The translations under genes and the position numbers were made by a program. The notes beneath the pieces are model-generated. The model was not told the DNA's origin. It saw nothing but the letters and a program-made list of their open reading frames with translations, and ran no database searches. From the NCBI GenBank assembly GCA_044892505.1, contig CM097884.1, positions 135,284,001 to 135,348,000 of the forward strand: DNA of 64,000 bases. Reading direction: 5' to 3'. This document shows positions 21,515-61,589 of the stretch, piece by piece. This stretch comes from Schmidtea nova (taxonomy: Eukaryota). Positions within the stretch are counted from its first letter, which is position 1, and each line of letters begins with the position of its first letter.

Positions 21515-21547
21515 ATTGGCTAACCAACAACACCGGTTCAGTATAAA
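21515..21547 (+). promoter_or_regulatory. Putative LTR promoter: inverted CCAAT (ATTGG) plus TATAAA
   Basis: Both motifs and their 26-27 nt spacing are conserved in three diverged LTRs (9102/9129, 16517/16543, 21515/21542). Confidence 0.7.
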
Positions 21548-23290: not shown

Positions 23291-23439
23291 TTGATGCAGC
23301 CGAGAAAGAATGATTGTCTTAGATATAGAAATATATGTATTGGAGTGCGACGGTCTTGTTTTGTTTTGAGTGCATGAGAACAACCTAAGGATAAGGTAGA
23401 GTTGTGTAATGACGATAGGATGACCGAAAGATCAGACAC

Positions 23440-24039
23440 ATGACATATACTGCCATTAATGATATATTTACAGACATGACGGAAACCAAGGGCAGAGATT
23501 TCAAGCAAGAGGCGCGAGAACACAAGGCGCGCTCACGAGTCCTGGAGAGTCGATTAAGGCAGCTGAATGAGGAGCATCAGCGGGTTAAAACGACATGGTT
23601 TAGCCCAGAGCGGGTTAAGTCCATCCTGCAGGCTAGATACAGGGCGGAACGAGTAGCTGAGGAACATGCCAGAGAGATTGCAGCCCTGAAGCTGGAGTTG
23701 GCGAATTATTTGAAGGTGTCGACTCGAGACTTCATCACCGAACAATTGCGCCCCGTGATCCGAGCGAGCACCTTTAATCGATGGATAGATACGATAGCGG
23801 TAACTACGAGTACCCAAACAGAAACCGATACCATCGCAACCACGACGATCGAATCAACAACGAAAACTCCAGCCGGTTCAAAACGAACGAAGAGGAGGAA
23901 TCGCTTAGGAGCGAAAAAGCGCAGGGAAAGACGCGCATATGCAGATCGCGTAGGAATAGAGGTAGACTTGCTCAGTGGTCTATCTGAGCAAGAACTACTA
24001 AATGTAATTCGACCCTCTGTATTGGTGAACTATAAATAA
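23440..24039 (+). CDS. LTR-encoded ORF2 (199 aa; coiled coil, TQT motif, Arg-rich basic patch); start may be Met13 at 23476
   Basis: Intact in both LTRs; homologs at 18283 and 10572; AATAAA at the stop. Confidence 0.8.
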   Translation: MTYTAINDIFTDMTETKGRDFKQEAREHKARSRVLESRLRQLNEEHQRVKTTWFSPERVKSILQARYRAERVAEEHAREIAALKLELANYLKVSTRDFITEQLRPVIRASTFNRWIDTIAVTTSTQTETDTIATTTIESTTKTPAGSKRTKRRNRLGAKKRRERRAYADRVGIEVDLLSGLSEQELLNVIRPSVLVNYK

Positions 24040-24429
24040 ATGTATATAAATGAATGACTTGATTTACCTTGTTTGTTTGATGCATGTATAAGAAGTAAAA
24101 GTAACAAAAACCCTGGTTCATTTAAATTGCAGATATCTAAAAAGTAAATTACCCTAGAGCAAAGTAAGGAGCATAAGTGGGACCGAAAGAAAGCCACAGA
24201 CACCTTCTATCGGTAGTGGTGGACCCGTGAATAAACAAGGGAATAGTAGCCGAAAGGTTGCTCACCTGCCTTGTCATTTCACAACGTTGACACAGCACCA
24301 ACATGATGAGTAGTTAGGGATACATCATGGGTGTCAGCGGGGGAATGTTTTTATGTTGGCGAGATCACCCTAACATATAAAATCATAATGATCTCAGTTG
24401 TCAATCTAACCAACACACCAGCATAAATT

Positions 24430-24981: not shown

Positions 24982-25440
24982 ATGGAGAACAAAATAAAAG
25001 AAATGCAAACGTTTTTCGAGACAAATAACGAGACAATGGAGATAATAATGAGAAAGTTAAGACGACTCGAGGTAGGAGGATATCACAAACCGACAAACAA
25101 CACAGAAAGAGCTGAAACAATGATGAGCATAAGCGAGAATAAGATAACAGTGGATACAGCAACACGATATCAGTGGTATAGAGAGCGCTTAAACAACCCT
25201 GAAATGAATATCGAGTGCCACAGGCTAGAACAACAGATTGCAACAAAACACGATGAGTGGAAAAGAACGACAACCGAATATACGAGACAGTATCTGACGT
25301 GTTACATCTGTGAAATAAACAAAATACAGATAATGTTGTTGCCGTGTGGGCATTTTCGATTCTGTAATGACTGTAAAATAAATGAACGATGTCCTATGTG
25401 CAACCTTCCCGTATCCGAGAAAATAACAGTGTACTTGTAA
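24982..25440 (+). CDS. IAP-type C3HC4 RING finger protein without BIR (152 aa)
   Basis: C-terminal CYICEINKIQIMLLPCGHFRFCNDC...CPMC...KITVYL; AATAAA just after the stop. Confidence 0.8.
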   Translation: MENKIKEMQTFFETNNETMEIIMRKLRRLEVGGYHKPTNNTERAETMMSISENKITVDTATRYQWYRERLNNPEMNIECHRLEQQIATKHDEWKRTTTEYTRQYLTCYICEINKIQIMLLPCGHFRFCNDCKINERCPMCNLPVSEKITVYL

Positions 25441-28405: not shown

Positions 28406-29551
28406 ATGAGTGATCACAGAGAGGATCTAAGAGAAAAATTCAAGGGCGAACCATTTAATGGAGACGCCAGTAGATTGGACACGTTTCTGAAGGAATTTGG
28501 CATATTCGTGGATATATGCGGATGGAGTGCAGAAACGTTAGCGAATCGAATCCCGCTATACTTGAAAGATAGCGCATTGGATCTGTATATTGAAAAGAGA
28601 TCTGGAAGTAATCCACCCAGAACGTGGGAAGCGATCAAGGAGTTCTTCCAACAGACGTTTGGGATAAACAAAGTGCTGAATGAAGCATTCGATGAGTTCT
28701 CAGCAAGAAAACAAAGGAGAAATGAGTCAAATGCGGTGTACGCAAGCGAATTAAGAAAGTTGGCGAAACTGGCATTCAACAGAGGAAGCCCAGTAGACGA
28801 AGAATTGATGACAGCGTTATTCGTACGAGGTCTCAGGAGACCTGACATCAGAGCACAAGTGGGATGCAAGGGATGTAAAACAGTAGATGAAGCGTTGGAA
28901 GCAGCCAACCTATTCGAATTGCATATGGCAATGAATGACATGAGAATTACGGCGGTAATGGGAAAAACGACAGAAGATGAAGAACAAGGAAAAAGAAACA
29001 TGAATCAGAGTATTCCCCATTCACAGAGATTGTTCAAAGAACCGCCAGCGAGGAAGAATAACGGATATATCACGGTGAACACGAATGGAGGAAATAGTTA
29101 CAATGACAGGCAGAATAGGCAATGTCAGACGTGTGGGAAAAACGGACATTGGCAACAAGAGTGTTTCCAGAATGTAGCCTGTAAACTGTGTGGACAAAAA
29201 GGTCACTCAGAAAATCGATGTTATGGGAAAACGTGTTACACATGTGGAAAAACCGGACACATGTCAAGAGACTGTAATCAACAGAGAAGTTGGTCAAACA
29301 GTGGAAATAGACCGAATTACGGGAATCGACCAAGCTATGGGAATCAAGGTCAACAACGGAACAACCCAAACAGCAGTGCAAACGAAGCTAGTATGAAAGA
29401 AGCTAAGTTGAGACAGGAGGTATCCAGATTACACGAGATAATCGAAAGCATGGCAAAGGGAAGCCAACAAGCTGCTCAACCAAAGATAAACATGATCCAG
29501 TTAATAGAAGCTGAGGCCGAAAGAGAAAACAGAGAGTCAACAGAAACATAA
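28406..29551 (+). CDS. gag: Gag (retrotransposon capsid domain plus three CCHC zinc knuckles)
   Basis: FNGD...LKDSAL..Y...W..IK..F..TFG capsid pattern; CQTCGKNGHWQQEC, CKLCGQKGHSENRC, CYTCGKTGHMSRDC. Confidence 0.93.
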   Translation: MSDHREDLREKFKGEPFNGDASRLDTFLKEFGIFVDICGWSAETLANRIPLYLKDSALDLYIEKRSGSNPPRTWEAIKEFFQQTFGINKVLNEAFDEFSARKQRRNESNAVYASELRKLAKLAFNRGSPVDEELMTALFVRGLRRPDIRAQVGCKGCKTVDEALEAANLFELHMAMNDMRITAVMGKTTEDEEQGKRNMNQSIPHSQRLFKEPPARKNNGYITVNTNGGNSYNDRQNRQCQTCGKNGHWQQECFQNVACKLCGQKGHSENRCYGKTCYTCGKTGHMSRDCNQQRSWSNSGNRPNYGNRPSYGNQGQQRNNPNSSANEASMKEAKLRQEVSRLHEIIESMAKGSQQAAQPKINMIQLIEAEAERENRESTET

Positions 29552-29639
29552 TCAAGAATGGGCTAGAGTACGACGAGAAGAAGAACAAGTCAGGCAACAA
29601 CGATTACAACAGTTAAAAAAGGGAAATCCAAGGATCAAC

Positions 29640-32600
29640 ATGATGCGAGCAATGATGGAAGAGAAGCAGCAGGATGAGTCAGACGAGTTAGAAGTTAAAG
29701 AGAAAAGAAACGAAGAGCAGAAACAAGAAGAAGTGAGTCAGGAAGTAGAAACTACAGAGCAGAATCAAAAAGTGGAAGAAGTAGAAAAAGAAACAGAAAC
29801 AGAAAAAGAAACAGGAAAAGAAACGAATCAAGAAGAGGGAGTGAGAATCAAACAAAGAGGAATGTTGGTGATCATGCCGAATGATCACGTATTTCGATTC
29901 AAATACGATGTAAAAGAAGAAGTAGGAAGATTGTTCAATAAAGTAAATGAGATGATTCCGGGAGTGACGAAACTGCCCAGAGAAGCATTCCTACAAACAG
30001 AGGATCTACCAGAAGTGAAGTTAAAGATGACTGATATATGGGAAGATATGGGAGTAACGGAGACGAAAATAAACGTGATGATCATCAGAGAGGTGGAACC
30101 GGAGAAAATCCCACCACCAGTGAAACATCAAACTCGGATCAGTCGAATATTCAAAGGAAAAATAAGACGAAGACGGTTGGAAGAAATAGAGGAGTTGGAG
30201 AAAAGAATGGGAAAAGCTGAAATAACGGGAAACGAGAATGAACTAATACAGGAAGTTAGCAAAAACGAAGCGAGACCAACCGCGCATATTGGGATGCTGA
30301 GACACCCAAGACAAGAGTTGTCAGATGAAGAAGATGACAGCGAAGTTAGCAGTCTGGCAGGAGACATGCTAAAGGAACCGGAAAACGAGGATAAAAAGAT
30401 GGAAGTAGTCGAGACGATAGAAATGATGTCAGTAAAGGAAGAGGAAATTCAGAAGCTGATGGATAACGCGTTGGAAGTAATCCATAACGAGGAGTTTATC
30501 GACGGGAAACGATATAGAAAGTTTATACGAGCAGTATGGCAGATGAAGTATAAAGAGTGGTTACAAGAAAGAGAAGTGAGGGTAATACAAGAATTCATAG
30601 AGAAGTTATTGAAAGAACCACTGAACGAATACGTAATACAAATATGGATAAACGAGTGTTCACCGAGAATCTGGATAAGGAACCCAATGACGGATGGAAT
30701 ATATCGATGGGTTGAGGACAGATTGGGAAGCTCGTACAAAGACAAGTTCATATACTCAGGAAACGGATTGGTGAGAAAAGGAACGCATATGATAGACACA
30801 GGCATATGGCCAGGAGAAATAACGACGTTATCAATATGCAACACCAAAAAGGAAGAGAACTTACAAGGAATCGTCAAAGAAGCGAATACGTGTTACGAGA
30901 TGAGAATAAAACCTCAGTTGGTAGAGGCAAAAGAAAGAATCTTGGCGGAGAATTTGAATACGATGATAGAACAGATCATCCAACAAATCAAGAAACATCG
31001 AAAGGAATTGACGAAAAACGAGTATGAGAATTTGAAACAGTGTATCGAGAACATACGAGATACAAGTCAAACGAGACATTCAAATTTCAAAACAGACAAG
31101 CTAATTGCAAAGATGGGAAAAGAAATGTTTAAAAGAGGAGAGGTATCAGACCTGAAGATTACCGTGAGATTGCCGAACGAGGAGACAAGACAAATTGAAG
31201 TAATACCAGATAGTAAAGTGGGAGAAATAGTAGAGGTCATCAATGAGACGATATTACAACGAGAACGAGAAGACGAATTCGAAGATGACATTGCGATAAA
31301 ATACAAAGAACATCTACTGAACGAACGTGACGAAAGACGAGCGTATAAAATCGGCATATGGGACAATTTCCAGACAATACACGTCATCAGAATGGATGAT
31401 GTGCCAAGAGCAACACCAAGAGATGAGGAAAGGAAAAAGAAACGACAAGAGGACGTTATGCGCAAGTTGAGGCAGATAGTAGAAATCTATCGGAACTGGC
31501 AGATGAAGCCAGAATGGGAGACAATATTGGGGGAATTGGATCTTAACCGACGACGATTGACGCCAGTAGAGAAGCAATGGGATAACAAAGAGAAACGTTG
31601 GAAAGTGAAAAGAGGCGTATATGAAGAAGATCCGGAGGGAGAAGACAGATACGAAACGAATACAAAACGGATATGTATGGTAACAAGGAGAATATTACCA
31701 ACGGACTTAGACGGACCAGAAACTGCAGTAATATGGGCAGAATTGGAGAAACAGAAAACGAGTGAATTGATCGAGCTGTTGAGAGGAAATACTCGGGGAA
31801 AAAGACAAACAAAAAAAGGCTTAGCACAATTCATAATCTCAAATGGAGAAGACATAACGAACTTGAGAAAAGTAGCTAAAGCGATAGCAGAATACAAGAG
31901 AGTTAACGAGTGGTGTCCAGAGCAACTAGACGAGGTAATAAAAAAGTGGAGAAACAAAGAGTTTACGGAGGAAACGCCACAGAAAATACATTTGAGGATA
32001 ATGTATCCGAATCAGAGAAAAGAAGAGTTTTGGGTGATGCTAACAGAAAAAGTGAAGAGTGTTAAAGAGAAGCTGATGTATGAACTACCATTCCACCTGC
32101 AACATCAAGGACGATCGTTGGATAACAATTTGGAAATCTGGCTGACACCAGTACAATTGGATCTAATGAATACGCTAACAGTGGCACAGATAGTGGGTCA
32201 ACCACTGAAGTTTAAAGAGGAAAAGAAAGCGAAAGGAAGCATGAGTACACCAAGTCCGATGAAGTCAACAACGACCCCAGGAACAAGTTCGGGACAAGCA
32301 AGGACAACACCAATCAAAACGAGAGAAAGAACACCGCCAGAAGCGTATGACGTCGATGAGATACTAACAGACAGTGACGAAGCGATAGAAGAATTAACGA
32401 AACTGACTCAAAAACCAACGGCGAACATTTTTGACAGAATAATAGAGATGCCAATAACGTCACCAGCAGAAATCGACGATCAAGGAGTGGAACAGGAGGT
32501 AGTCATAGAAATGGTAAACGATTCGGAAGACGAACAAGAACAACCACAGTTTACTCAAGAAATGGAAAGATGGTTAGAACAGCGAGCGAACGAAGGAAGA

Positions 32601-35600
32601 GATGTTACAGAAGAAACCGGAAGAGCAGCGAGATTTGTAGAAACCGGAACTGGAATGGAAAAACGACCAAGAGGGAGACCAAAGATAGATCTAGCAACAA
32701 CAATTCCAAAGACAAGAGAAGAAAGGAGACAAGAGCAATGGGAGATTTGCTTGAAGAAACTAGACAAAATCGCAGAAATCAGAGGAAAAGAGGAGAATCA
32801 AGTTTGTCAAGGAGAAGAATGGCTCACCAAAACGATAATGGATGTACTAGCAATAATTGACCCAGACTTAAAGAATTTGTGGCGAATAAACGAACCTAGT
32901 ACAAAGGCAAAAATGCTACACAATGCAATAGCACCGATTATGCCAGAATTGATAAAGGCAAAAACAAAATCGAATCATCTAGATTGGCAAGGAACCACGA
33001 TGTTGATAAAAGGGCTACTTAACGGAGCAGAGACGGATAGCAAATATCTAGTAGCAATCTCGTATACGATATACAATTTGTTAACGCTAAGCCGAGGGAG
33101 TCCGAAGTCAAGTCCGATGGGAAGACATATTAAAAATACGGCGATGATTATCGAGAAAGAAATTGAACCATATATCCTCAGAAAAGGAGGATGGGAGAAG
33201 TTCATAAAAGAGAACCAGACGAAAGAAGGCTCTAACGTGATGAGAAAGAAACTCGAAGGAGTATTGAGAGAAATGGAGAATAGACAAACGATGCAAGGAA
33301 ACGGAAGATCGACGTTGAATCTAAACTCGATAATCATGATGATGCTAGTATGGTTGTTAAGCACAGAAGGTGTAACAACGTTCGAAGTATTTGATTGTGA
33401 TCAAATGAAGTTAGGAGAAAAGTACTCATTGAGAGGTACGGAGCAATGCAAAGATGCAACTCCAGTAGAGTTAAAAGAGATTAAAAAAGAACAATGGTAC
33501 CACGTGTATCAAGAGGCAGAACTAATAAAGACAATGGTGAATGAATGCAAGGTACAGAAGACGAGATTCGCATTCTATTGTGGGAGAGGACATTATTCAG
33601 CAATTGTCATGCCAGGAACAGAAAGAGAACCAATCGTATTGCAAGGGGAAGACTGCGAAGCATTATTTAAACATGGAGAAGTAACAACGAGAGATAAAAT
33701 CAAGATAAAAGGAAAACCAGGAATGATGTTACAGCAGACATATTACGTAGCAGGACGAATTACGGGAGGAGAAGGATATTGTCAAGGAGAAACCTACCCA
33801 ATATTTGGAGTACCTGCAACCAACTTAGTGGTAATGGATACGTACATAGTCGAACTGAAAAGTTACGAAGCATTCTTCGAACCAACAACAGGAGAAATGA
33901 AAACGTTATCCATGTGTAAAATTGACAGGAGTATGTGTCAAACGGGAATGTCAACTTTGGTGTACAAACCGAAAGTGAACGAATGTCAATTACAACTGCT
34001 ACAAGGAGCAAAGTTCGACGAAATTCAAGGAAAAACGTTCCAAGAGGAGGACGATGACGACAAAGCTAGAGCAAAACATCTCAAAGAAGCTTTAGAAAAT
34101 AAAAGACAACTGAAATCAGAGCAGAGAGAGAAACGGATAGAGATGAGAACCACACCAACAGTGTTGATAACCACAAATCAGGATGTGGGCATGAGATTCA
34201 TAAAAGGGAAAGCAACCCTTAAGTGCAGTACAACAGTATACGAAACAAACTATCCAGGAATATATGTGTCAAAGCAAGAAGTACCGAATGCGAAACCCAA
34301 GATCGACACAATGGATATCAAGCTACACTTGTATGTGAATAATAAAATGGATTTCTTATTCCATAGAGGACAAGCCTCATTGCAAAAAGTGTACTATGAT
34401 CTGATAAACAACGATTGTATACTGAATCGAGAAATATTGAAGACAAAGTTGGCCGTAGCGATTACGAATCCAGATAGCGCGATGCCATTATTACCACTGA
34501 GAGAAGGACATTTCGGAAGAGTGGTCGGAGAAGCAATGTACGTATACATTTGCGAAAAGACACACGCATCGCTAGCAGCAACAACGCAGTTGAAACCTGG
34601 ACAATGTACAAACGAACTAGAAATCGATTATAAAGGAAAAGTACGATATGTTCAACCGGTGACGAGAATCATCAATCCACCAGGGTTTGAACCAAATCCA
34701 TTCAACTGTAGTAATGCGTACGGACCGCTTTATCAGAAGCCAGATGGCAAATGGGTTATGTTCCCAGGAAGAACCGAAGTATTAGCACCAAGAGAATTTG
34801 AACTGATGCAGTTGTCAAAAGATAGACAGTTCAGTGACGTAGATGTCTCAAACAACGGAATCTATAGTCCAAAGGATCTAGAAGCAGCAAGGCAGAATAT
34901 ACTATTTCCGGCAAGAAGAGAAGCATTACTGTCAAATATCGTAACGATAACGGGAGGAACGAATTATCGAGAAGGACCGAATTACGAACTGCTGTTGTCA
35001 CCGGCACATTTCAAGAAAGCCACAGAAAATATGATGAAGGCAATGTGGGGAAGATTCCTGATATTTGGACAAATGATGGCTGGAATACTGGGGGTTATAC
35101 TGATAATACAAATCGTCAGAGTGATAATAACGCAAATGTTAGCGTGTTTCGATATCTACAAGAGAGAAAAGAAAGTGAATTGGAAAATGGTAGTAGGGTT
35201 TTTACCATTCCTTGCGAAAACGATGGTGTTACACGGACACTCAAAAGACATACATCGAATAAAGAGGTTGTTGAAGATACTTGCAAAAATGAGAGGAACA
35301 AATGAAGATGTCGGAAGGAAATTCAAAAAGATAATGCAAGATGAACAAGCAAGACGACAACTGAAGAAGGAAAGGAAAGGATTATGGGAAAGAGTGAAGG
35401 GATATCGAACACAAGATGATTCAAGCAACGACGACGATGACGATGACGATCAAGGAGGACAAGCGAATATAAACCAGATTCCACAGTATAACGAAAAGAG
35501 TGCAGTTGAGAATTGGAGATACAGTGCTCCACCTCAGTCAATGTATAACGAACCGATATACAAAGCGAAGCCGAATATGATGCAGATGATGCCGATGACA

Positions 35601-38600
35601 AGTATATACCCGATAATTCCAGAAGACTGCAAAGTAAAACGAGGCGGAAGCGTAAACTCGTTAGAAGACACGCATACGATAGCGGTTATGTCCACAAATA
35701 TGGGACCGATTTTAACAACAACTGTAGAAATAAACGGAAGAGAAATTGAAGCTATGATCGATACAGGCGCGAATATTTCGGCGATCGACATTAATCATAT
35801 ACCAGAGAAAAATCAAGGAGAAATCGAGAAGACGAATGTTCATGTAATCGCGTGCAGTCAAGAGACAGTAGAAGTAGCCGGAAGATGGTTTGTAAAAATT
35901 AAGCATCGAGGTGCAGAAATCAACACGTACATCGCTGTAATACCATCGCTGAGTGTACCATGTATTATTGGAACTGACCTGATGCCAGACCTGTTCAAGG
36001 AAATCGTAATTGATCTAGGAGCAATGAAGCTGAAAGATAGAACAGGAAAAATCTGCAGAATGAAAGTTAAAGTGGCAAGTGCAGGACAAATAGTAGTGCC
36101 AGCGAGGCACGAAATGATGTGCTATGTCAAGATCGATTCGACAATAAAGGGAGACATGATATTCGAACCAAGTAAGAAGTTCGAAGCGAAGAAGGAATTA
36201 CAAATGGCAAGAGAATTGGTCACGATAAACCAAGAAGGAGAAATACCGATTAATCTGGTAAACTTCGACGAAGAGGACAAGATAATATACGAGAATGAGA
36301 ATTTGGGTAAATTAACACCCATGTCCGAAATCGAAATACCAGATAAGAATGAGAAAAGCAAAGACGAGTTACCATGGAAAATCGACAGTGTGTTGTTAGA
36401 CGAACGACAAAAAGAACAGTTACAGAAACTGTTGATGGAATATAAAGATATATTCGCAGCATCAGATTTAGATCTGGGAACATGTGATGTAACATTACAC
36501 ACGATACCGTTGACGGACGAAACGCCAATCGTATTACGACCATACAAACTGGCAGAAGCTCAAAAAGCAGTGGCAGAAGAAGAGGTACAAAAGATGTTAG
36601 ATGCAGAGGTCATCGAACCTAGTTGCTCACCCTGGCAATTCCCGGTGGTGATGGTGAAAAAGAAGGATGGAACTCAAAGATTCTGTATCGATTACAGACG
36701 ATTAAATGCCGTTACGAAAAGAGATACGTACCCACTGCCAGACATAAATGAAATGTTGTTGACGTTACAAGGAGCAGCCTATTTCACGTCACTGGATTTA
36801 AAGAGCGGATATTGGCAGATCAAAATGAAAGACGAGGATAAAGAGAAGACAGCATTTACAATCGGACGAGATCTGTACCAATTCAAGAAAATGCCGTTTG
36901 GGTTAACAAACGCGCCAGCATCATTCCAGAGATGCATGAATTTCGTAACACATGGCATAAAACAATGCATGGTGTATATCGACGATCTATTGATCTACTC
37001 CGCAACATTCGAAGACCACTTGCAAGACATCAGAAATGTGTTCGTGAAATTAAGGCAATGGAAGCTGAAATTGAAGCCGTCAAAGTGCGATTGGGCAAAA
37101 GATAAAGTGACATTCTTAGGTCACATTGTATCAGCAAAAGGAAAAGAACCAGATCCAAGAAATATCGAGAAAGTTAAAGAATGTCCACCACCCAAGACAG
37201 TAACTCAAATACAAGAATTTTTGGGATTGTGTGGATATTATCGAAAGTTTATCAAGGACTATGCAGGAATATCAAAGCCAATGCAAGAATTAGTAAGACA
37301 AGACGTGTCGTTTGTGTGGGGAGCAGAACAGCAAGCAGCATTTGAGACATTACGAGACAAGCTGATTACAGCGCCAATATTAGTCCATCCAGATTTTAAG
37401 AAGCCATTTCTGTTGGCAACAGACGCAAGTGGATACGCAGCAGGAGCAGTACTAGGCCAATTCGATGAAGAAGGCAAAGAGAGAGTAATTGGGTACTACA
37501 GTCGAACATTCAGGAAACATGAAAAGAATTACTCAGTCACGGAAAGAGAAGCCTATGCGATAATATTGGCAATCAAGCATTTCAAATACCTGTTGTGGGG
37601 TCATGAAATATATATCACGACGGATCATCAACCATTGGTATGGTTAGGTCAACATAAAGAATCATCAAGTAGATTGATGCGTTGGGCGATGCAGTTGCAA
37701 GAATACTCGCCATTCATAAAGTTTAAAGCAGGAAAAGCAAACGCAAACGCGGATTGCATGTCAAGGTTTACATTTCCGGAATTGGTGAACCTAAATGCTC
37801 TAAAAATATGTGCATTAATAGCGGAGGATCTGGATTTCAGCGAATTAAGGAAAGATCAACTCGAAGATGAGGAGTTGGGATTGATCAGCAAGTATCTGAA
37901 AGAAAGGGAAATGGAGATATTCGGCAAGAACCAAACGTTACGCGAACATATGCAGAAATATCAGCACCGATATGTGATGGAAAAAGGATGGTTATTGATA
38001 CAAGATGGAGAACGAAGATTAATGTGCTTACCTGCGAATAGGCGAAAGGAAATCATGACTCAATATCATGACGGAAAATTAGGCGGACATATGTCAGCGA
38101 AAAAGACAATCGGGAGATTGAGACAAAAGTATTTTTGGCCAACCATGGAAGATGATGTGAAAGAATGGATAAAGAACTGCTTAACCTGTGCGACAAGAAA
38201 GAACGTCGGAACAAAGTGGAAAACACCACTAAAACCAATGCCAATACCTGCAGAACCGATGGCAACGATAGCAATGGACGTAGTTGGACCATTGCCGGAA
38301 AGCTTAAAGGGGAATCAGTATATCTTAGTAGTTACGGACTATCTAACAAAGTTCCCAGAAGCATTCGCAATACCAGATCAAAAAGCAAAAACAGTCGCGA
38401 GAATATTGGTAGAAGAGATATGCTGCAGATACGGAACACCCAAGAAAATCCTAACGGACCAAGGAACGAACTTCATGAGTGAAATATTAGACGAAGTCAC
38501 GAATTACTTCCGAATTGCGAAATTACGAACATCCCCATACCATCCGCAAACGAACGGTCAAACAGAAAGGTTCAATGGAACATTGATACGCATGTTGTCA

Positions 38601-41600
38601 AATTACGTCAGTAAACATCAGACTGACTGGGACGAGTATATCAACTTGTGTTTAATGGCATATAGAATGTCAATACATGCGGCAACAAAGCTAAGTCCAT
38701 TTCAACTGATGTACGGAAGAGACTGCAACTTACCGATCGATTTAGAATACCAACCACCATTATCACAGTACATGGAGGTTGACGATTACGTGACGAAGTT
38801 CAAAGAAAGAATGCAAGAGATCTGGAAAACGGCGGAACTAAACATCAAGTTCTATCAAGAGAGTTACAAGGATCTGCATGACCAGAAAAAGAATGTGAAA
38901 GCACATGATTTAAAAGTTGGAGATTGGGTGATAATCGAAACACCAGAGATAATACCCGGTACGGTCAAGAAACTCCAACGACCAGGCAAAGGGCCATACG
39001 AAATAACAACAGTAAATGAAAACAATGTGCGAGTACGATTGGTGAACAATCCATTGGTAAGACCAATATACGTGAATGCATGTCGATGCAGGAAAATACC
39101 AAAGACAGCAACTCTATCACCAGAGAAACGGGTGATGACAAGATCACAGACGGCGAGAATTAGTATGTTACGAGTACAACAAAAGCCGCAAACAAGTCTA
39201 GAAGACAACCGAAGAGAAGTAATAGACATCAAAGAACTGGCAAAGAGGACCAGAGAAATTATACCAGAATGGAAATGGTGGTTCGATTTCAATATATTGA
39301 CAGAAGTTCGAAAGAATGTAATGGACTATGCTAAGGATAGAACAGCACATCCAATAACAAGGACGCTGCTAGAGGAGATCCCTCAGACATTGAATCTACA
39401 AGACAAAGATGGTAATACCGCGTTACATAATGCAATCAAGCACAGTGGAAACGAAAAAGTGAAAGAGATCGTGGAAATGATACTCGAAGGTGGAGGAGAA
39501 ATTGACAAAGTGAATTGGGAAGGAATCACTCCACTGATGATGATGACGATTCACGGAAGAAACGATGAAATAATCAAGCTATTCGGAAACACCAGATCGA
39601 ATTGGATGACAAAAGATAAAGAAGGGCGAACTTTCTTGAATCATGCAATTGATAGAGCAAATCACCGAATACTGAAGTATATCACGGAGAATGCCACGTG
39701 GGAAATCGACGAACTAACTAGAGGATCGATCATGAAACAAGCAATCGGGGTAAAGAACAGTAAAACCTGGAGGATATTGCTAAAATGGAAACGACCAGAA
39801 GGAGATTCGTGGATCATGGATTGTAATGAAGTGTTCATAAAGGGAGAAAATGCGCTACTGAAACATCTATTAGAAGTAACATACGATCCAAAAACACTTG
39901 CAGTGTTGATAGCGAGAGATACGCTACGGGTTAGTGAAAACCCAAGAGAATACAAGTTGGAAGACAGAAAGAAGGAACTATTCGGATTAATCAAGAAATG
40001 GTGCGATAAGCAATGGAATCCGGATATGAGCTTCGAACATTTCTATGACATCCAAAAGCAGCACAAAGAAATAAGCAAACGATATAAAGAGCTGGTGGAA
40101 GCATTGAAGTATGGACAATTCTTCAGACAAGCAGTGTATCAAGACCAACGAATGAAACAGATGCAAACGCGAATAAGAAGCAAAGCAGTGTTGTTCAATG
40201 CAAAAGCTGATTATCAAGAGAGATTAGACGCAATCGTAGCAAAAGCACAGGAGAAATTATCGGAATTCAAGGAGAATAAAAAATCGCTAGAAATACTAGG
40301 AGCAATTACAGAGAAAGTGCACAGATATGCACAAGGAGACTCTAACGAGAGTGACATGGAAACGATCAAAAATCAAATGCCTGTAGCATTCCTATTATCG
40401 AAGAATGGGAGATTGCCGATACATTGGGCATTACGTCGAAAGAAAGAAAACGAAGTGCTAGAAATAACGAAAGCAATGGTCAAGTGCGAAGCAGACATGA
40501 ATACGGTTGATGGTAATGGAGATACAATCATGATAATCGCAGCAAGGAAGAAGACGAAGTTGAAAGTGCTAAATGAATTATACGAAGCAGGAGCAAAAAT
40601 CGAAGGGAAAAATGGAAAGAATAATTCCATCATAGATATCGCAATACAGTGGAACAATTTCGAGATGATCAAGTTCATAAAGTCCATCAAGAGACAAGAG
40701 GACATAGAATACCTGGCAAATAACGTAAAGAATTTCAGTTTGACAGTAATGATACACGACATAGAGAAAACAAGAGCATTAATAACATGGGTGAATCCGA
40801 TCACCAAGGAACCGGCTTTCAAGATCAATGACCATATGGAACAGAATCAGAATTGGTGTATCAGAAGCGCGTTATTAAGACACAAAAAGCCAGAGATAGT
40901 AGAAGAATTCTTAAAGAGAAGAGATTTGAAGTTCACGAACAATCCAAAGGAACCCGAACGAACGGGAAGATGGAAAAACTTGTTCAGAAAATATGTGAAT
41001 GAATGGACAAATGCCAAAGGAGCAATCAAGCAAAGTAGACTAGAAGACAGGGAACCATCCAAGGAGATGGAAATACGTGAATTCGAGTCTAGCACACTCG
41101 CGGTTCAAACGTATGAAAGATTGATTGAAGAAATTAATGTCGAGGACGACATTTCGAAAGGACCAGGGGGTGGTTACAGAGATTTCGACGACAAAAGCAA
41201 CAACGAAGAGAACAACGAAGACAATGACAACAAAAGAACAGAGGATAATGAAAAAGAAAGACAAGAAGAACCGAAACCAACGAGAAACGACAAGAAAGGG
41301 GAAGCCGAAGAACGAGAAAACAGTGGAACAAAAGACGAACATGCGAACTATGGAAAACGAACAGGAAGTCTACTTTTGAGACCAGAAATGTTGTGTATTG
41401 CGATATTGATAACAATCATCGGACAAGGAGAAGCCAAGAAACAATACGTCACGCTAGAGATAATCAGAGGAAAGGAAGTATACGAAAGAATATGCTGGAA
41501 AGAAAACCTGAAGAAAAACGATACGCTGAAGTGTATATTGTCAGATCTAAAGCGAGACGTCATCCAAATCAAAGGATTGGAGAAAGAAAAGTCATACATA

Positions 41601-43313
41601 ATATGCGCAATAAAGCAGAGAGGAGAACCAAAAGCACCTCAGGTAACTGCATGTCAATTATATAAAGCAACAGAAGCGCTGAAAATACAGAAATGGATTG
41701 AGAAAAGAAGCGAAGAGACAACGAGAAGAACAGAAGTGGAATTGGAGAAAGGGAAGAATCAATCTGAAGCAGAAGAAGGAATCGGAAACCGAACGGAGAA
41801 AGAAAGAATAACCAAAAATTCAGCGGGAAAATTAACATTCCAACCGGAATTGATATGTGTAGCATTAATATTAATCCTCATTAAGAGAATCATGGAGGAC
41901 ATAGATATTAGCGTAATGACGTTAGTAAATATCCAAGACCAACGAACAACGAACGGAAGATGTTGGGGACGAAACAATGAGGTAATTGGAATCAGCGAAA
42001 CAAGAGAAAGTCGAGAGACAGAGACAAATGAGGAAATCGAGATAACCGAAATGGAAACAGAGAAAACATGTGAACTATGCCTCATGGAAAAAGCAGCAAA
42101 CGGAAACAGACCAGGAACAAGCGAGTGTAAAGTGTTCCAAGCAAAGGAGATAATTGAGTTCCCAAAAAGAAAGAAACAAGATCAAGAAACGATTGCGAAT
42201 GAAGTAGTAACAGTGGAGATAAAAAACATTGGTCGGAGAACAATTGGGATGTGTTGGAGAAAATACATCGGAGTACCGACCAACAACATAATACCGCAAT
42301 GCAGAACGAGAGAACGAGGAATCCCGTTTCAACTAAATGGATTCGAAGTCGGACAAACCTACGAAATTTGCGTAATTCGAAGAATAAGAGAAATAATACT
42401 AAGAAGCCTGGAGTGCAAACTGTACAAGACGCCAGAGCAAATTAACGGAACAAGAACGATCGAAATGGGAGGAAGTCGACAGAGGAAAAGAAAGTCAAGA
42501 AGAACCACGACAACAAACAGTCAAGGAGTTCAACAGGCAACAACGGAAAGAACGACAATAGAAAACGAACCGGAATCAACAACGCTGATAATATGGAAGA
42601 TCCATAAAAAGGTCCTAGAAATCTGTTGGACACTAATGCCGAACAGTATGGGAAAGTCCCCACGAAACTGTCAAAAGACATCAAATGATAAAGGAGAAAT
42701 AATCGAGGTAGAAATGAGGAAGTTGAAAACAAACGCAGAGTACGAAGTGTGTGCAATCGAAGAAGTAGATGCACAAGGAAATCCACAAGAAAGGTGCGAA
42801 ACCTATTACACGCCAAGGAACACGACGATAAAGAGGAGAATCAAAAAGTTAGAATTCCGAGAATTGAGTCAGAAGAGAGAACAAAACGAGAAGGAAGAAA
42901 CAATACCAAATCAACAAGAAAGATGGGAACCAGAGAAAGTGATTGAAGAAGTTAGACGGAGACAACAACAATATGAACAATGGGAAGCAGAATGGAAAGG
43001 TCAATATGGCGTGATGATAAACCAAAGTGAGACTCCAAGAATGAGCATTGGAAAAACAGTAATGGGATTAATCAGCATGGGAGTATTCATAGCGTGTATA
43101 CCGCTGATAACGATCATGATAGTATGTTGGAGATATGGCATGAGAAATAAGACCATAGCAGTAAAATGGCCGGACGTAAAGGTCACGAACTACAACATAA
43201 AACTACCAAAAGAAGTACGAGAAGAGCTGAAAAGACGATCGAAACACGAAGAGATGTGGGTACAGATCGAAGACGAGGAACTGTACGAAGGAAAACCAGT
43301 GATAGTCGTATAG
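29640..43313 (+). CDS. pol: 4,557-aa polyprotein: accessory domains, glycoprotein, PR, RT, RNase H, IN, ankyrins, FN3-like membrane domain
   Basis: Uninterrupted 13.7-kb ORF (frame open from 29508); DTGA 35760, YIDD 36975, TDAS RNase H, HHCC plus DDE integrase, GPY motif. Confidence 0.96.
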   Translation: MMRAMMEEKQQDESDELEVKEKRNEEQKQEEVSQEVETTEQNQKVEEVEKETETEKETGKETNQEEGVRIKQRGMLVIMPNDHVFRFKYDVKEEVGRLFNKVNEMIPGVTKLPREAFLQTEDLPEVKLKMTDIWEDMGVTETKINVMIIREVEPEKIPPPVKHQTRISRIFKGKIRRRRLEEIEELEKRMGKAEITGNENELIQEVSKNEARPTAHIGMLRHPRQELSDEEDDSEVSSLAGDMLKEPENEDKKMEVVETIEMMSVKEEEIQKLMDNALEVIHNEEFIDGKRYRKFIRAVWQMKYKEWLQEREVRVIQEFIEKLLKEPLNEYVIQIWINECSPRIWIRNPMTDGIYRWVEDRLGSSYKDKFIYSGNGLVRKGTHMIDTGIWPGEITTLSICNTKKEENLQGIVKEANTCYEMRIKPQLVEAKERILAENLNTMIEQIIQQIKKHRKELTKNEYENLKQCIENIRDTSQTRHSNFKTDKLIAKMGKEMFKRGEVSDLKITVRLPNEETRQIEVIPDSKVGEIVEVINETILQREREDEFEDDIAIKYKEHLLNERDERRAYKIGIWDNFQTIHVIRMDDVPRATPRDEERKKKRQEDVMRKLRQIVEIYRNWQMKPEWETILGELDLNRRRLTPVEKQWDNKEKRWKVKRGVYEEDPEGEDRYETNTKRICMVTRRILPTDLDGPETAVIWAELEKQKTSELIELLRGNTRGKRQTKKGLAQFIISNGEDITNLRKVAKAIAEYKRVNEWCPEQLDEVIKKWRNKEFTEETPQKIHLRIMYPNQRKEEFWVMLTEKVKSVKEKLMYELPFHLQHQGRSLDNNLEIWLTPVQLDLMNTLTVAQIVGQPLKFKEEKKAKGSMSTPSPMKSTTTPGTSSGQARTTPIKTRERTPPEAYDVDEILTDSDEAIEELTKLTQKPTANIFDRIIEMPITSPAEIDDQGVEQEVVIEMVNDSEDEQEQPQFTQEMERWLEQRANEGRDVTEETGRAARFVETGTGMEKRPRGRPKIDLATTIPKTREERRQEQWEICLKKLDKIAEIRGKEENQVCQGEEWLTKTIMDVLAIIDPDLKNLWRINEPSTKAKMLHNAIAPIMPELIKAKTKSNHLDWQGTTMLIKGLLNGAETDSKYLVAISYTIYNLLTLSRGSPKSSPMGRHIKNTAMIIEKEIEPYILRKGGWEKFIKENQTKEGSNVMRKKLEGVLREMENRQTMQGNGRSTLNLNSIIMMMLVWLLSTEGVTTFEVFDCDQMKLGEKYSLRGTEQCKDATPVELKEIKKEQWYHVYQEAELIKTMVNECKVQKTRFAFYCGRGHYSAIVMPGTEREPIVLQGEDCEALFKHGEVTTRDKIKIKGKPGMMLQQTYYVAGRITGGEGYCQGETYPIFGVPATNLVVMDTYIVELKSYEAFFEPTTGEMKTLSMCKIDRSMCQTGMSTLVYKPKVNECQLQLLQGAKFDEIQGKTFQEEDDDDKARAKHLKEALENKRQLKSEQREKRIEMRTTPTVLITTNQDVGMRFIKGKATLKCSTTVYETNYPGIYVSKQEVPNAKPKIDTMDIKLHLYVNNKMDFLFHRGQASLQKVYYDLINNDCILNREILKTKLAVAITNPDSAMPLLPLREGHFGRVVGEAMYVYICEKTHASLAATTQLKPGQCTNELEIDYKGKVRYVQPVTRIINPPGFEPNPFNCSNAYGPLYQKPDGKWVMFPGRTEVLAPREFELMQLSKDRQFSDVDVSNNGIYSPKDLEAARQNILFPARREALLSNIVTITGGTNYREGPNYELLLSPAHFKKATENMMKAMWGRFLIFGQMMAGILGVILIIQIVRVIITQMLACFDIYKREKKVNWKMVVGFLPFLAKTMVLHGHSKDIHRIKRLLKILAKMRGTNEDVGRKFKKIMQDEQARRQLKKERKGLWERVKGYRTQDDSSNDDDDDDDQGGQANINQIPQYNEKSAVENWRYSAPPQSMYNEPIYKAKPNMMQMMPMTSIYPIIPEDCKVKRGGSVNSLEDTHTIAVMSTNMGPILTTTVEINGREIEAMIDTGANISAIDINHIPEKNQGEIEKTNVHVIACSQETVEVAGRWFVKIKHRGAEINTYIAVIPSLSVPCIIGTDLMPDLFKEIVIDLGAMKLKDRTGKICRMKVKVASAGQIVVPARHEMMCYVKIDSTIKGDMIFEPSKKFEAKKELQMARELVTINQEGEIPINLVNFDEEDKIIYENENLGKLTPMSEIEIPDKNEKSKDELPWKIDSVLLDERQKEQLQKLLMEYKDIFAASDLDLGTCDVTLHTIPLTDETPIVLRPYKLAEAQKAVAEEEVQKMLDAEVIEPSCSPWQFPVVMVKKKDGTQRFCIDYRRLNAVTKRDTYPLPDINEMLLTLQGAAYFTSLDLKSGYWQIKMKDEDKEKTAFTIGRDLYQFKKMPFGLTNAPASFQRCMNFVTHGIKQCMVYIDDLLIYSATFEDHLQDIRNVFVKLRQWKLKLKPSKCDWAKDKVTFLGHIVSAKGKEPDPRNIEKVKECPPPKTVTQIQEFLGLCGYYRKFIKDYAGISKPMQELVRQDVSFVWGAEQQAAFETLRDKLITAPILVHPDFKKPFLLATDASGYAAGAVLGQFDEEGKERVIGYYSRTFRKHEKNYSVTEREAYAIILAIKHFKYLLWGHEIYITTDHQPLVWLGQHKESSSRLMRWAMQLQEYSPFIKFKAGKANANADCMSRFTFPELVNLNALKICALIAEDLDFSELRKDQLEDEELGLISKYLKEREMEIFGKNQTLREHMQKYQHRYVMEKGWLLIQDGERRLMCLPANRRKEIMTQYHDGKLGGHMSAKKTIGRLRQKYFWPTMEDDVKEWIKNCLTCATRKNVGTKWKTPLKPMPIPAEPMATIAMDVVGPLPESLKGNQYILVVTDYLTKFPEAFAIPDQKAKTVARILVEEICCRYGTPKKILTDQGTNFMSEILDEVTNYFRIAKLRTSPYHPQTNGQTERFNGTLIRMLSNYVSKHQTDWDEYINLCLMAYRMSIHAATKLSPFQLMYGRDCNLPIDLEYQPPLSQYMEVDDYVTKFKERMQEIWKTAELNIKFYQESYKDLHDQKKNVKAHDLKVGDWVIIETPEIIPGTVKKLQRPGKGPYEITTVNENNVRVRLVNNPLVRPIYVNACRCRKIPKTATLSPEKRVMTRSQTARISMLRVQQKPQTSLEDNRREVIDIKELAKRTREIIPEWKWWFDFNILTEVRKNVMDYAKDRTAHPITRTLLEEIPQTLNLQDKDGNTALHNAIKHSGNEKVKEIVEMILEGGGEIDKVNWEGITPLMMMTIHGRNDEIIKLFGNTRSNWMTKDKEGRTFLNHAIDRANHRILKYITENATWEIDELTRGSIMKQAIGVKNSKTWRILLKWKRPEGDSWIMDCNEVFIKGENALLKHLLEVTYDPKTLAVLIARDTLRVSENPREYKLEDRKKELFGLIKKWCDKQWNPDMSFEHFYDIQKQHKEISKRYKELVEALKYGQFFRQAVYQDQRMKQMQTRIRSKAVLFNAKADYQERLDAIVAKAQEKLSEFKENKKSLEILGAITEKVHRYAQGDSNESDMETIKNQMPVAFLLSKNGRLPIHWALRRKKENEVLEITKAMVKCEADMNTVDGNGDTIMIIAARKKTKLKVLNELYEAGAKIEGKNGKNNSIIDIAIQWNNFEMIKFIKSIKRQEDIEYLANNVKNFSLTVMIHDIEKTRALITWVNPITKEPAFKINDHMEQNQNWCIRSALLRHKKPEIVEEFLKRRDLKFTNNPKEPERTGRWKNLFRKYVNEWTNAKGAIKQSRLEDREPSKEMEIREFESSTLAVQTYERLIEEINVEDDISKGPGGGYRDFDDKSNNEENNEDNDNKRTEDNEKERQEEPKPTRNDKKGEAEERENSGTKDEHANYGKRTGSLLLRPEMLCIAILITIIGQGEAKKQYVTLEIIRGKEVYERICWKENLKKNDTLKCILSDLKRDVIQIKGLEKEKSYIICAIKQRGEPKAPQVTACQLYKATEALKIQKWIEKRSEETTRRTEVELEKGKNQSEAEEGIGNRTEKERITKNSAGKLTFQPELICVALILILIKRIMEDIDISVMTLVNIQDQRTTNGRCWGRNNEVIGISETRESRETETNEEIEITEMETEKTCELCLMEKAANGNRPGTSECKVFQAKEIIEFPKRKKQDQETIANEVVTVEIKNIGRRTIGMCWRKYIGVPTNNIIPQCRTRERGIPFQLNGFEVGQTYEICVIRRIREIILRSLECKLYKTPEQINGTRTIEMGGSRQRKRKSRRTTTTNSQGVQQATTERTTIENEPESTTLIIWKIHKKVLEICWTLMPNSMGKSPRNCQKTSNDKGEIIEVEMRKLKTNAEYEVCAIEEVDAQGNPQERCETYYTPRNTTIKRRIKKLEFRELSQKREQNEKEETIPNQQERWEPEKVIEEVRRRQQQYEQWEAEWKGQYGVMINQSETPRMSIGKTVMGLISMGVFIACIPLITIMIVCWRYGMRNKTIAVKWPDVKVTNYNIKLPKEVREELKRRSKHEEMWVQIEDEELYEGKPVIVV
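32738..33215 (+). other. Bcl-2-like domain within the polyprotein
   Basis: IEKEIEPYILRKGGWEKFI resembles BH2 (Bcl-xL LNDHLEPWIQENGGWDTFV); weaker BH3-like LKKLDKIAE and BH1-like ELI...LDWQGT in the expected order. Confidence 0.55.
33321..35250 (+). other. Chuvirus-like fusion glycoprotein domain
   Basis: Signal-like SIIMMMLVWLLSTEG; FDC...YSL...EQC, ECKV...R...YCG..H, YVNNK, NDCILNR, FGRVVGEAMYVYIC Cys pattern; C-terminal TM GILGVILIIQIVRVII. Confidence 0.8.
35700..36030 (+). other. Aspartic protease domain
   Basis: INGREIEAMIDTGANISAI ... CIIGTDLM. Confidence 0.9.
36550..37790 (+). other. Ty3/Gypsy-type reverse transcriptase plus RNase H
   Basis: SPW..PVVMVKKKDG..RFCIDYRRLN, LDLKSGYWQI, MPFGLTNAPASFQR, YIDD; LATDAS...ERE...TDHQPL...NADCMSR. 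Confidence 0.95.
38040..39080 (+). other. Integrase
   Basis: YHDGKLGGH...CLTC; AMDVVG, TDQGTNF, TERFNGTL; C-terminal GPY module. Confidence 0.95.
39390..40690 (+). other. Two ankyrin-repeat clusters (~39390-39700 and ~40400-40690)
   Basis: NLQDKDGNTALHNAI, NWEGITPLM, KDKEGRTFLNHAI; KNGRLPIHWAL, ADMNTVDGNGDTIMIIA, GAKIEGKNGKNNSIIDIA. Confidence 0.8.
41382..43313 (+). other. C-terminal membrane module: hydrophobic leader(s), four FN3-like Cys-containing repeats, TM, short tail
   Basis: Four repeats of [xCW ... I/L..L....Y.(I/V)C ... C..(Y/F)]; TM GLISMGVFIACIPLITIMIVCW at ~43060-43135. Confidence 0.55.
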
Positions 43314-49491: not shown

Positions 49492-49640
49492 TTGATGCAG
49501 CCGAGAAAGAATGATTGTCTTAGATATAGAAATATATGTATTGGAGTGCGACGGTCTTGTTTTGTTTTGAGTGCATGAGAACAACCTAAGGATAAGGTAG
49601 AGTTGTGTAATGACGATAGGATGACCGAAAGATCAGACAC

Positions 49641-61536: not shown

Positions 61537-61589
61537 TTAATGAAAGAAATACATTAATTAATTAAATAAATTTTGTTTGTATTAATTGT

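What the first reader, a model, noticed from the sequence alone, without database searches (positions are those of the whole stretch)
32738..33215. Bcl-2-like domain directly before the glycoprotein
Seen: EPYILRKGGWEKFI, preceded by BH3-like and BH1-like segments over ~160 aa. Known: BH2 (W..xGGW..F) is a hallmark of the Bcl-2 fold, and viral Bcl-2 homologs are usually highly diverged. Inference: an anti-apoptotic module. The following glycoprotein signal peptide could double as its membrane tail anchor.
Basis: partly seen in the sequence, partly recalled or inferred. Interest (0 to 1): 0.8.

Follow-up and report, generated by a model that had tools for sequence, protein, structure and literature searches.

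The report
Bcl-2-fold domain in giant retrotransposon polyprotein
A giant virus-like retrotransposon in an animal genome carries a much-altered copy of the cell-death regulator Bcl-2 just in front of its envelope protein, an arrangement already described for the Burro elements of planarian flatworms, whose job is still untested.

Summary
Real, and a Bcl-2 fold, but the arrangement is in print. The motif is the end of a ~142-aa domain (residues 1054-1195) of a 4,557-aa ORF in a 29.5-kb Gypsy LTR element: Gag...Bcl-2, signal peptide, mononegavirus-like Env, PR, RT, RH, IN, ankyrins. This matches planarian Burro elements, where BCL2 before Env was reported (PMC6431247). The window's sequence alone hits nothing. 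Six sister families in the same genome carry the domain at the same place. Their joint profile hits Bcl-xL (E 5.8e-9), and the alignment-based model (pLDDT 75) matches only Bcl-2-fold chains at ranks 1-35 (best Z 12.7). The domain is under strong purifying selection (pN/pS 0.04, like Env) and follows the RT and Env trees, so it is one old capture. Anti-apoptotic action through a canonical groove is therefore unproven. The signal-peptide-as-tail-anchor idea fits the topology in all seven families but is inference.

The parts
32799..33224 (+). Bcl-2-fold core, residues 1054-1195 of the long ORF; model helices at about 1058-1073 (alpha1, BH4-like), 1088-1100 (alpha2), 1105-1108, 1116-1129 (alpha4), 1134-1153 (alpha5), 1157-1181 (alpha6/7), 1185-1192 (alpha8)
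   Evidence: helix names assigned by me from order and from the Bcl-xL alignment
33165..33206 (+). BH2-like motif (Tyr at the first aromatic position, GGW kept); identical in 30 of 30 same-family loci
33015..33065 (+). BH1-equivalent position, degenerate (T-D-S-K for N-W-G-R)
32745..32780 (+). extra N-terminal helix with the ORF's only BH3-like motif (Leu-x-x-Ile-Ala-Glu), outside the Bcl-2 superposition; a similar motif stands at this place in 5 of 7 families
   Evidence: absent in the L064 and L065 families:
32661..32684 (+). AT-hook-like basic motif just before the domain, also in the L031 and L066 families (3 of 7); motif name recalled
33324..33380 (+). internal signal-peptide-like segment of Env (residues 1229-1247), small residues at -3/-1; candidate C-terminal anchor of the upstream precursor
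   Evidence: cleavage site inferred by eye, no predictor run
33381..35162 (+). Env, Monjiviricetes-type fusion glycoprotein, with transmembrane segment at 35073-35129
   Evidence: Pfam PF24664 E 8.4e-68
35718..38546 (+). protease, reverse transcriptase, RNase H, integrase in Gypsy order
39381..40682 (+). ankyrin repeats after integrase
29640..43313 (+). 4,557-aa ORF holding the domain
28406..29551 (+). Gag with CCHC knuckles; in this copy in another frame than the long ORF, while 2 of 2 other copies checked have Gag and the Bcl-2 domain in one open frame
43877..45289 (+). accessory ORF, TRAF-like (RING, TRAF zinc finger, MATH)
24982..25440 (+). accessory ORF with a C-terminal RING finger; no BIR found
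21141..24423 (+). 5' LTR, 3,283 nt, TG...CA, one mismatch to the 3' LTR; 4-nt target-site duplication
47342..50624 (+). 3' LTR

Best explanation
The domain is a host-derived Bcl-2-fold protein, captured once by the ancestor of these env-bearing Gypsy elements and kept as the last cytosolic domain of the Gag-side half of the polyprotein. SHOWN by computation: the fold, the fixed place before the Env signal, purifying selection, and inheritance together with RT and Env. INFERRED: during translation the internal hydrophobic segment acts as the Env signal sequence, so Env enters the ER lumen. Signal peptidase cuts on the lumenal side and leaves the segment as the C-terminal membrane anchor of the upstream precursor, with the same orientation as a Bcl-2 tail anchor but inserted at the ER. 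The element's protease may then free the Bcl-2 domain from Gag. INFERRED, weaker: the anchored domain dampens the death response of the cell that makes Gag, Env and cDNA, by holding host BAX/BAK/BOK-type proteins in check. Because BH1 is degenerate, it would do so with an altered groove and narrow specificity, as poxviral M11L/F1L do, not as a Bcl-xL copy. My odds: fold 0.93, functional constraint 0.95, at least transient anchoring 0.7, pro-survival action 0.55.
For: Fold: profile of 11 element sequences vs PDB, best 60 of 204 matches all Bcl-xL/Bcl-2, best E 5.8e-9; Pfam Bcl-2 matches 8 of 11 members at E<=1, best 2.1e-8; window clade vs other clades by hhalign, probability 83%, E 9.1e-6, 120 columns; shuffles; model pLDDT 75.4, pTM 0.68; VIA ranks 1-35 of 50 all Bcl-2 fold, best Z 12.7, rmsd 3.0, 137 aligned, first unrelated row Z 5.8; Foldseek PDB 46 of 46 rows shown are Bcl-2 family; named top viral rows are v-Bcl-2 and E1B-19K proteins; a sister domain's best Atlas hit is a Bcl-2 cluster, score 0.91. 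Constraint: against 29 same-family copies pS 0.20, pN 0.0085, ratio 0.04, the same as Env (pooled, not independent); against the nearest family 72-73% identity with saturated synonymous sites, while the adjoining linker keeps 29-35%. History: RT, Env and Bcl-2 trees of 7 families give the same three clades. Topology: a hydrophobic segment starts 29-47 residues after GGW in the 6 families printed and is visible in the seventh; no other hydrophobic segment lies upstream in the long ORF; Gag is in frame with the domain in 2 of 2 copies checked and in three sister families. Function by context: TRAF, RING and ankyrin cargo; an IAP of Burro1 is reported to protect stem cells from caspase-mediated death (second-hand, passage in PMC13465017); viral Bcl-2 proteins without BH motifs, such as M11L, still bind BH3 ligands (passages, PMC3847314).
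Against: The window's own sequence matches no Pfam family and no PDB sequence, nor does a profile of its clade alone. The single-sequence model had pLDDT 48.7 and no Bcl-2 chain among its 50 listed matches. The good model rests on alignment A2, which includes recognisable sisters, so it is not independent of it; 2 of its 5 models scored 56 and 50. No Foldseek match reached E 0.001, and the tool warns that Z under about 13 can be common for helical bundles. The BH1 glycine is absent in 11 of 11 sequences, the Trp is kept in 1 of 11, and the window has Lys for the Arg; mouse Boo, with SWSQ for NWGR, binds no pro-apoptotic protein (passage, PMC5691656). Bcl-2-fold A52 and B14 do not modulate apoptosis (abstract, PMC2494871). 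Purifying selection is as strong in the flanking parts within the family (ratios 0.01-0.08), so it shows a translated, constrained polyprotein as much as a Bcl-2 function. The window's hydrophobic core is weak for a lasting anchor (19-residue mean 1.42).
Confidence: 0.5

Rival explanations
1. Bcl-2 scaffold reused for innate-immune signalling, like vaccinia A52/B14/A46: it binds TRAF, IRAK or IKK-type host proteins, or the element's own TRAF protein, and does not bind BH3 helices.
For: BH1 tetrad degenerate with bulky or acidic residues at the glycine position in 11 of 11; fast divergence between clades, 14-25% identity against 36-41% for Env; TRAF and ankyrin cargo in the same element; precedent in PMC2494871 (abstract).
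Against: The best structural matches are groove-bearing cellular proteins (Z 11-12.7); A52, N1, A46 and B14 rank 29-35 with Z 6.0-8.4. BH2 GGW is kept in 11 of 11. Three families with ~3,000-3,400-codon frames keep the domain too.
Confidence: 0.2
2. A structural or membrane role for the element itself: the anchored domain holds the Gag precursor at the ER membrane next to Env, as a matrix-like spacer, or permeabilises membranes like BAX/BOK to help particle exit.
For: Its place at the Gag/Env junction is fixed in 7 of 7 families, whereas other cargo of Burro elements moves between polyprotein and accessory ORFs (PMC6431247). BOK and BAK are among the tied best structural matches (Z 11.8, 11.7).
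Against: Pro-survival and pro-death members share the fold, so the matches do not discriminate. Other death-pathway cargo points to host manipulation.
Confidence: 0.15
3. A switch: the extra N-terminal BH3-like helix plugs the domain's own groove, or acts in trans on host Bcl-2 proteins once the element's protease releases it, as in BID.
For: The motif occurs once in 4,557 residues, right before helix 1, is unchanged in 30 of 30 loci and recurs in 5 of 7 families.
Against: It lacks the Asp that defines BH3 motifs (PMC3847314): Glu, Asn or Ser instead. It is absent in two families, and the pattern was chosen after seeing it.
Confidence: 0.08
4. Not a Bcl-2 domain in this family: an unrelated helical region that ends in a chance GGW.
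For: No direct hit from the lone sequence; 14-17% identity to the other two clades.
Against: Same place before Env; significant profile matches that do not depend on the motif alone; confident model with a coherent fold match over the whole domain.
Confidence: 0.05

Closest known systems
Burro / GYPSM1 giant Gypsy LTR elements of dugesiid planarians (PMC6431247 section 7, read whole; it cites Jurka 2007 and Grohme et al. 2018, not seen)
   Same: About 30 kb with LTRs; one ~5,000-aa polyprotein with Gag at the N-terminus, a BCL2-like motif, mononegavirus-like Env in frame between BCL2 and protease, PR-RT-RH-IN, ankyrins; TRAF/MATH and RING cargo; SUMO-like unit upstream of BCL2 (weak PF11976 hits in two sister families).
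   Different: No BIR found in this element; the TRAF ORF lies downstream of the polyprotein, not inside or upstream of it; this family's domain is too diverged for Pfam. No published Burro sequence was available to align, and the host taxon was not tested.
Cellular multi-motif Bcl-2 proteins (Bcl-xL, Bfl-1/A1, Trichoplax trBcl-2L2, schistosome BCL-2, BOK, BAK)
   Same: Eight-helix bundle, Z 11-12.7, rmsd 3.0-3.4 over 131-145 residues; BH2 GGW; a hydrophobic segment downstream.
   Different: 8-14% identity; NWGR lost; no recognisable BH3 on alpha2 in this family; part of a polyprotein; the downstream segment looks like a cleavable signal followed by a lumenal glycoprotein.
Viral Bcl-2 homologues of DNA viruses (BHRF1, KsBcl-2, A179L, M11L, E1B-19K; non-apoptotic A52, B14)
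   Same: Captured, strongly diverged Bcl-2 fold with eroded BH motifs.
   Different: Those are free-standing genes of large DNA viruses; this one is fused between Gag and Env of a reverse-transcribing element, and its ligands are unknown.
Flavivirus capsid anchor and hepatitis C core/E1 junction (recalled, no call)
   Same: An internal signal peptide for a glycoprotein remains as the C-terminal anchor of the upstream cytosolic protein.
   Different: Unrelated proteins; an analogy of topology only.

Membership tests
Bcl-2 fold superfamily | helical bundle around a central hydrophobic alpha5, superposing over the whole domain | tested here: met
   ranks 1-35 all Bcl-2 fold, best Z 12.7, rmsd 3.0, 137 aligned; the model depends on alignment A2, and the single-sequence model did not show it
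Bcl-2 fold superfamily | sequence homology to Bcl-2 proteins | tested here: met
   indirect only: sisters match PF00452 and Bcl-xL and the window links to the sisters; direct searches negative
Pfam PF00452 (Bcl-2) | score over the curated cut-off of 31.4 bits | tested here: not met
   no match for the window's domain at E<=1; copies of two sister families pass the cut-off
canonical pro-survival Bcl-2 proteins | BH2 motif W-x4-GGW-x2-F | tested here: met
   kept with Tyr for the first Trp; 30 of 30 loci
canonical pro-survival Bcl-2 proteins | BH1 NWGR at the start of alpha5 | tested here: not met
   T-D-S-K in the window; glycine absent in 11 of 11; register taken from the profile alignment to Bcl-xL and alignment A2
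canonical pro-survival Bcl-2 proteins | open alpha2-alpha5 groove that binds BH3 helices and blocks BAX/BAK | not testable with these tools
   model coordinates could not be inspected; needs binding and cell assays
canonical pro-survival Bcl-2 proteins | C-terminal tail anchor | tested here: inconclusive
   a hydrophobic segment follows in all seven families but has signal-peptide features and is followed by Env
Burro-type giant Gypsy elements | about 30 kb with long LTRs, Gypsy pol order | tested here: met
   29,484 nt, LTRs 3,283 nt, PR-RT-RH-IN
Burro-type giant Gypsy elements | Gag, BCL2-like domain, Env and Pol in one frame, Env between BCL2 and protease | tested here: met
   this copy is broken between Gag and the long ORF
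Burro-type giant Gypsy elements | ankyrin repeats and MATH/TRAF cargo | tested here: met
Burro-type giant Gypsy elements | BIR (IAP) domain as in Burro1 | tested here: not met
   no Pfam BIR in the ORFs scanned; a six-frame zinc-pattern scan found only the RING and one antisense Cys-rich stretch
Burro-type giant Gypsy elements | SUMO/ubiquitin-like unit before BCL2 and dUTPase-like unit between PR and RT | tested here: inconclusive
   no hit in the window's pieces; weak PF11976 hits (E 0.002, 0.023) in two sister families
Burro-type giant Gypsy elements | sequence or RT-tree placement with published Burro1-4, in a dugesiid host | not tested
   no published Burro sequence in the databases reached; host taxon not established

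The most novel reading that the evidence does not exclude
These elements use one hydrophobic segment twice, as Env signal peptide and as tail anchor of a captured Bcl-2 domain. Every Env made would then deposit one Bcl-2-fold protein on the ER, with a remodelled, glycine-less groove and an extra BH3-like helix, to offset the stress that Env and retrotransposition cause. The cassette is older than the split of element clades whose RTs are only about 50% identical, and it is not limited to the largest elements.
Probability: 0.3. Interest if true: 0.62.

Novelty: new member of a known kind. Interest (0 to 1): 0.3.

Why it matters
A Bcl-2-like motif before Env in Burro elements has been in print since 2018-2019 (PMC6431247), so the finding itself is not new. 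This work adds fold-level support for a family that Pfam misses, evidence that the Bcl-2-Env cassette is ancestral to seven families in one genome, and a warning that BH1 is eroded throughout, so the anti-apoptotic label is untested. If the anchoring model holds, it links retroelement envelope synthesis one-to-one to control of host cell death, and gives a testable second survival factor beside the IAP reported for Burro1 in regenerating stem cells.

Tried and rejected
Direct searches with the window's domain found nothing usable: Pfam 0 families for two pieces; PDB sequences 1 irrelevant match at E 2.1; Atlas no usable hit; word-index protein searches 0 hits in three tries, with the domain, alignment A2 and the Env region; the all-representatives search gave 3 hits, all repeat proteins matched in 7-14 small pieces, rejected as noise; a profile of the window's clade alone gave one kinase at E 0.79. 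The single-sequence model (pLDDT 48.7) matched generic helical bundles, best Z 7.3, no Bcl-2 chain among 50 rows; a low-confidence model, so inconclusive. Complex prediction of the core with its own N-terminal BH3-like helix gave no verdict (score 0.01, mark 0.34, alignment not used); it is no evidence either way. Earlier findings of the scan: nothing in three look-ups. No ubiquitin-like match between the window's upstream region and sister families. Which host Bcl-2 gene was the donor: profile A2 scores the L039/L041/L053 group best among 14 host-like loci (E 8e-10 to 1e-7), but these are single exons and no rooted tree was built, so no donor is claimed. Grohme et al. 2018 and Lee et al. 2026 are not held; their text and supplements may already cover this domain's function or topology. 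Seven paper searches listed no paper on a test of the Burro Bcl-2 domain, its BH1 loss or the signal-anchor idea; only listings were seen for most rows.

Full report
Context. The finding lies in a 4,557-aa ORF at 29640-43313. Two 3,283-nt direct repeats 26,201 nt apart, with TG...CA ends, one mismatch and a 4-nt target-site duplication, bound a 29,484-nt element at 21141-50624, so this is a very young LTR insertion. Pfam gives Gag with CCHC knuckles in 28406-29551; a Monjiviricetes-type fusion glycoprotein (E 8.4e-68), protease, RT, RNase H, integrase and ankyrins in the long ORF; a TRAF-like ORF at 43877-45289 and a RING ORF at 24982-25440. The genome has 1.25 Gb. A search with the domain scored 150 of 1,022 candidates and all 150 matched: 139 at 75-100% identity and 11 at 67-68%, a second family; more than 20 rows lie in open frames of 5,075-5,114 codons (lower bounds, not copy numbers). 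In this copy Gag is in another frame than the long ORF; in 2 of 2 other copies checked, Gag and the domain share one open frame.

Observation. The quoted motif is at 33165-33206, residues 1176-1189. The frame begins at 32739. GGW alone is unremarkable, 0.19 expected in this ORF. The lone domain finds nothing in Pfam, PDB sequences, the Atlas or the large protein sets, and its single-sequence model is poor and matches no Bcl-2 chain.

Sister families bridge the gap. A search of the own genome with PF00452 scored 150 of 1,679 candidates. Of the 30 loci fetched, 16 have the Env start right downstream and 14 do not and look like host Bcl-2 exons. A search with the Env family and two follow-up searches gave further families. 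In all, seven families were sampled (window, L031/L074, L066, L070/L075, L069/L076, L064, L065). Each has a domain ending in an aromatic-x4-GGW motif, 55-70 residues before the first conserved Env cysteine in the six printed; L064 was missed by that pattern but shows the same order. An alignment of 11 such sequences (A2) matches 204 PDB sequences at E<=1, the best 60 all Bcl-xL or Bcl-2, best E 5.8e-9. Pfam Bcl-2 matches 8 of the 11 members but not the window's. The window's clade and the other clades match by profile (probability 83%, E 9.1e-6, 120 columns). A profile without the window's clade picks residues 1053-1196 out of the whole ORF (E 1.2e-6); 0 of 1000 full shuffles and 0 of 1000 motif-preserving shuffles reach the score, and 6 of 1000 do for the upstream part alone.

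Fold. With A2, AlphaFold2 gives pLDDT 75.4 and pTM 0.68; the five models score 75, 74, 72, 56 and 50. Against 48,161 chains, ranks 1-35 are all Bcl-2-fold proteins (best Z 12.7, rmsd 3.0, 137 aligned, Trichoplax trBcl-2L2; nematode and schistosome BCL-2, Bfl-1, BOK and BAK within 1 Z unit), and the first unrelated chain has Z 5.8. All 46 Foldseek PDB rows shown are Bcl-2 family, though none reaches E 0.001; the named top viral rows are v-Bcl-2 and E1B-19K proteins, best E 7.7e-3 for an unnamed entry. The match covers model residues about 33-177, ORF residues about 1053-1197. The model is not independent of A2. I put the fold at 0.93.

Motifs. BH2 is kept and identical in 30 of 30 same-family loci. 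At the BH1 position the window has T-D-S-K for N-W-G-R. The glycine is missing in 11 of 11 rows, the Trp is kept in 1 and an Arg or Lys in 9. Changes in this motif weaken or abolish BH3 binding in CNP058, Bcl-B and Boo (passages, PMC5691656), but M11L and F1L lack BH motifs and still bind some BH3 ligands (passages, PMC3847314). The ORF's only BH3-like motif (residues 1041-1046) is on an extra helix before alpha1, outside the superposition; a similar motif is found in 5 of 7 families, always without the defining Asp.

Selection and history. Against 29 same-family copies the core has pS 0.20 and pN 0.0085 (ratio 0.04; Env 0.04; flanks 0.01-0.08; pooled pairwise counts, not independent). Against the nearest family it keeps 72-73% identity with saturated synonymous sites, while the linker behind it keeps 29-35% and the region before it 62-67%. 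Trees of RT, Env and the domain for the seven families give the same three clades with 93-100% support; branching inside one clade differs at 50% support. Identity between clades is 47-52% for RT, 36-41% for Env and 14-25% for the domain. The simplest reading is one old capture, inherited with Env and evolving fast. The trees are unrooted and no donor is claimed.

Topology. The first hydrophobic segment of the long ORF is residues 1228-1246. In the six families printed a hydrophobic 15-mer starts 29-47 residues after GGW and ends before small residues at the likely cleavage site. Env's transmembrane segment follows at 1812-1830. From the established behaviour of viral polyproteins (recalled: flavivirus capsid anchor, hepatitis C core), an internal signal puts Env in the ER lumen and is left on the upstream product after signal peptidase cleavage. 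That gives the domain a C-terminal anchor in tail-anchor orientation, at the ER. The window's segment is only moderately hydrophobic (mean 1.42 over 19 residues), so it may be trimmed or released.

Mechanism. Most likely the domain is an ER-tethered survival factor made one-to-one with Env, acting on host BAX/BAK/BOK-type proteins through an altered groove (0.5 for the whole chain). Rivals: a signalling scaffold like vaccinia A52/B14 (0.2; abstract of PMC2494871), a structural or membrane-permeabilising role for the particle (0.15), a switch through the extra helix (0.08), not Bcl-2 (0.05). No step of function is shown here.

What is known. PMC6431247 (section 7 read whole) describes planarian Burro elements: over 30 kb, a 4,873- to 5,140-aa polyprotein with Gag, MATH/TRAF, SUMO-like, BCL2-like, Env between BCL2 and protease with hits to mononegavirus glycoproteins, and ankyrins; it credits the BCL2-like motif to Grohme et al. 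2018. PMC13465017 (passages) reports that Lee et al. 2026 showed a Burro1 IAP protecting stem cells. PMC8532177 (passages) calls Burro1 abundant and active; PMC11410931 (passages) mentions Burro once. Neither primary paper is held, so I cannot exclude that they tested the Bcl-2 domain. This element meets the architectural tests, lacks a BIR and was not aligned to published Burro sequences; the host taxon was not tested.

Verdict. A real, constrained, highly diverged Bcl-2-fold domain in a Burro-type element: a new member of a known kind, interest 0.3. What may be new is the shared signal/anchor, the family-wide loss of the BH1 glycine and the age of the cassette; searches listed no paper on these, with the two key papers unseen.

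Noticed in passing
window 28406-29640: This otherwise very young copy (one LTR mismatch) has Gag out of frame with the long ORF; two other copies checked do not.
   Followed up: partly
window 33381-34139 vs L031-L033, L074: Env is 96-97% identical to the nearest family with dS about 0.5, while upstream regions are saturated and RT is 92% identical: possible exchange of env between the two families.
   Followed up: partly
window 41364-43124: The C-terminal part of the long ORF has three hydrophobic segments (residues 3909-3927, 4063-4081, 4477-4495) around Cys-richer stretches with no Pfam hit; possibly further membrane proteins, two of them with similar signal-like segments.
   Followed up: no
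window 43877-45289: A full TRAF-like gene (RING, TRAF zinc finger, MATH) as accessory ORF downstream of the polyprotein.
   Followed up: no
window 24982-25440: Accessory ORF with a C-terminal RING finger and no BIR, unlike the IAP reported for Burro1.
   Followed up: partly
window 22655-23290 and 23440-24039 (repeated at 48856-49491, 49641-50240): Two ORFs of 211 and 199 codons inside the LTR, with no Pfam match.
   Followed up: no
window 43436-43786, 45382-46542, 46616-47140: Further accessory ORFs: two with only weak coiled-coil-type matches, one small with hydrophobic N-terminus and a second hydrophobic stretch.
   Followed up: no
window 32661-32684; L031, L066: AT-hook-like basic motif shortly before the Bcl-2 domain in 3 of 7 families.
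   Followed up: partly
L064, L065, L066, L075, L076: Families with ~3,000-3,400-codon frames carry the same Gag...Bcl-2-Env-Pol order; two of them show weak SUMO-like hits upstream of the domain.
   Followed up: partly
L039, L041, L045, L053, L059, L062: A group of related host-like Bcl-2 open frames without Env nearby, some lacking BH2; L039, L041 and L053 score best against the element profile.
   Followed up: partly
window 16160-19240 and 6833-7081: Diverged pieces similar to both ends of the LTR upstream of the element, probably older solo-LTR remnants.
   Followed up: no
window 26417-26796; 53652-54440; 61561-62639: Tandem arrays of 19 nt (inside the element's leader), 263 nt and 28 nt.
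   Followed up: no
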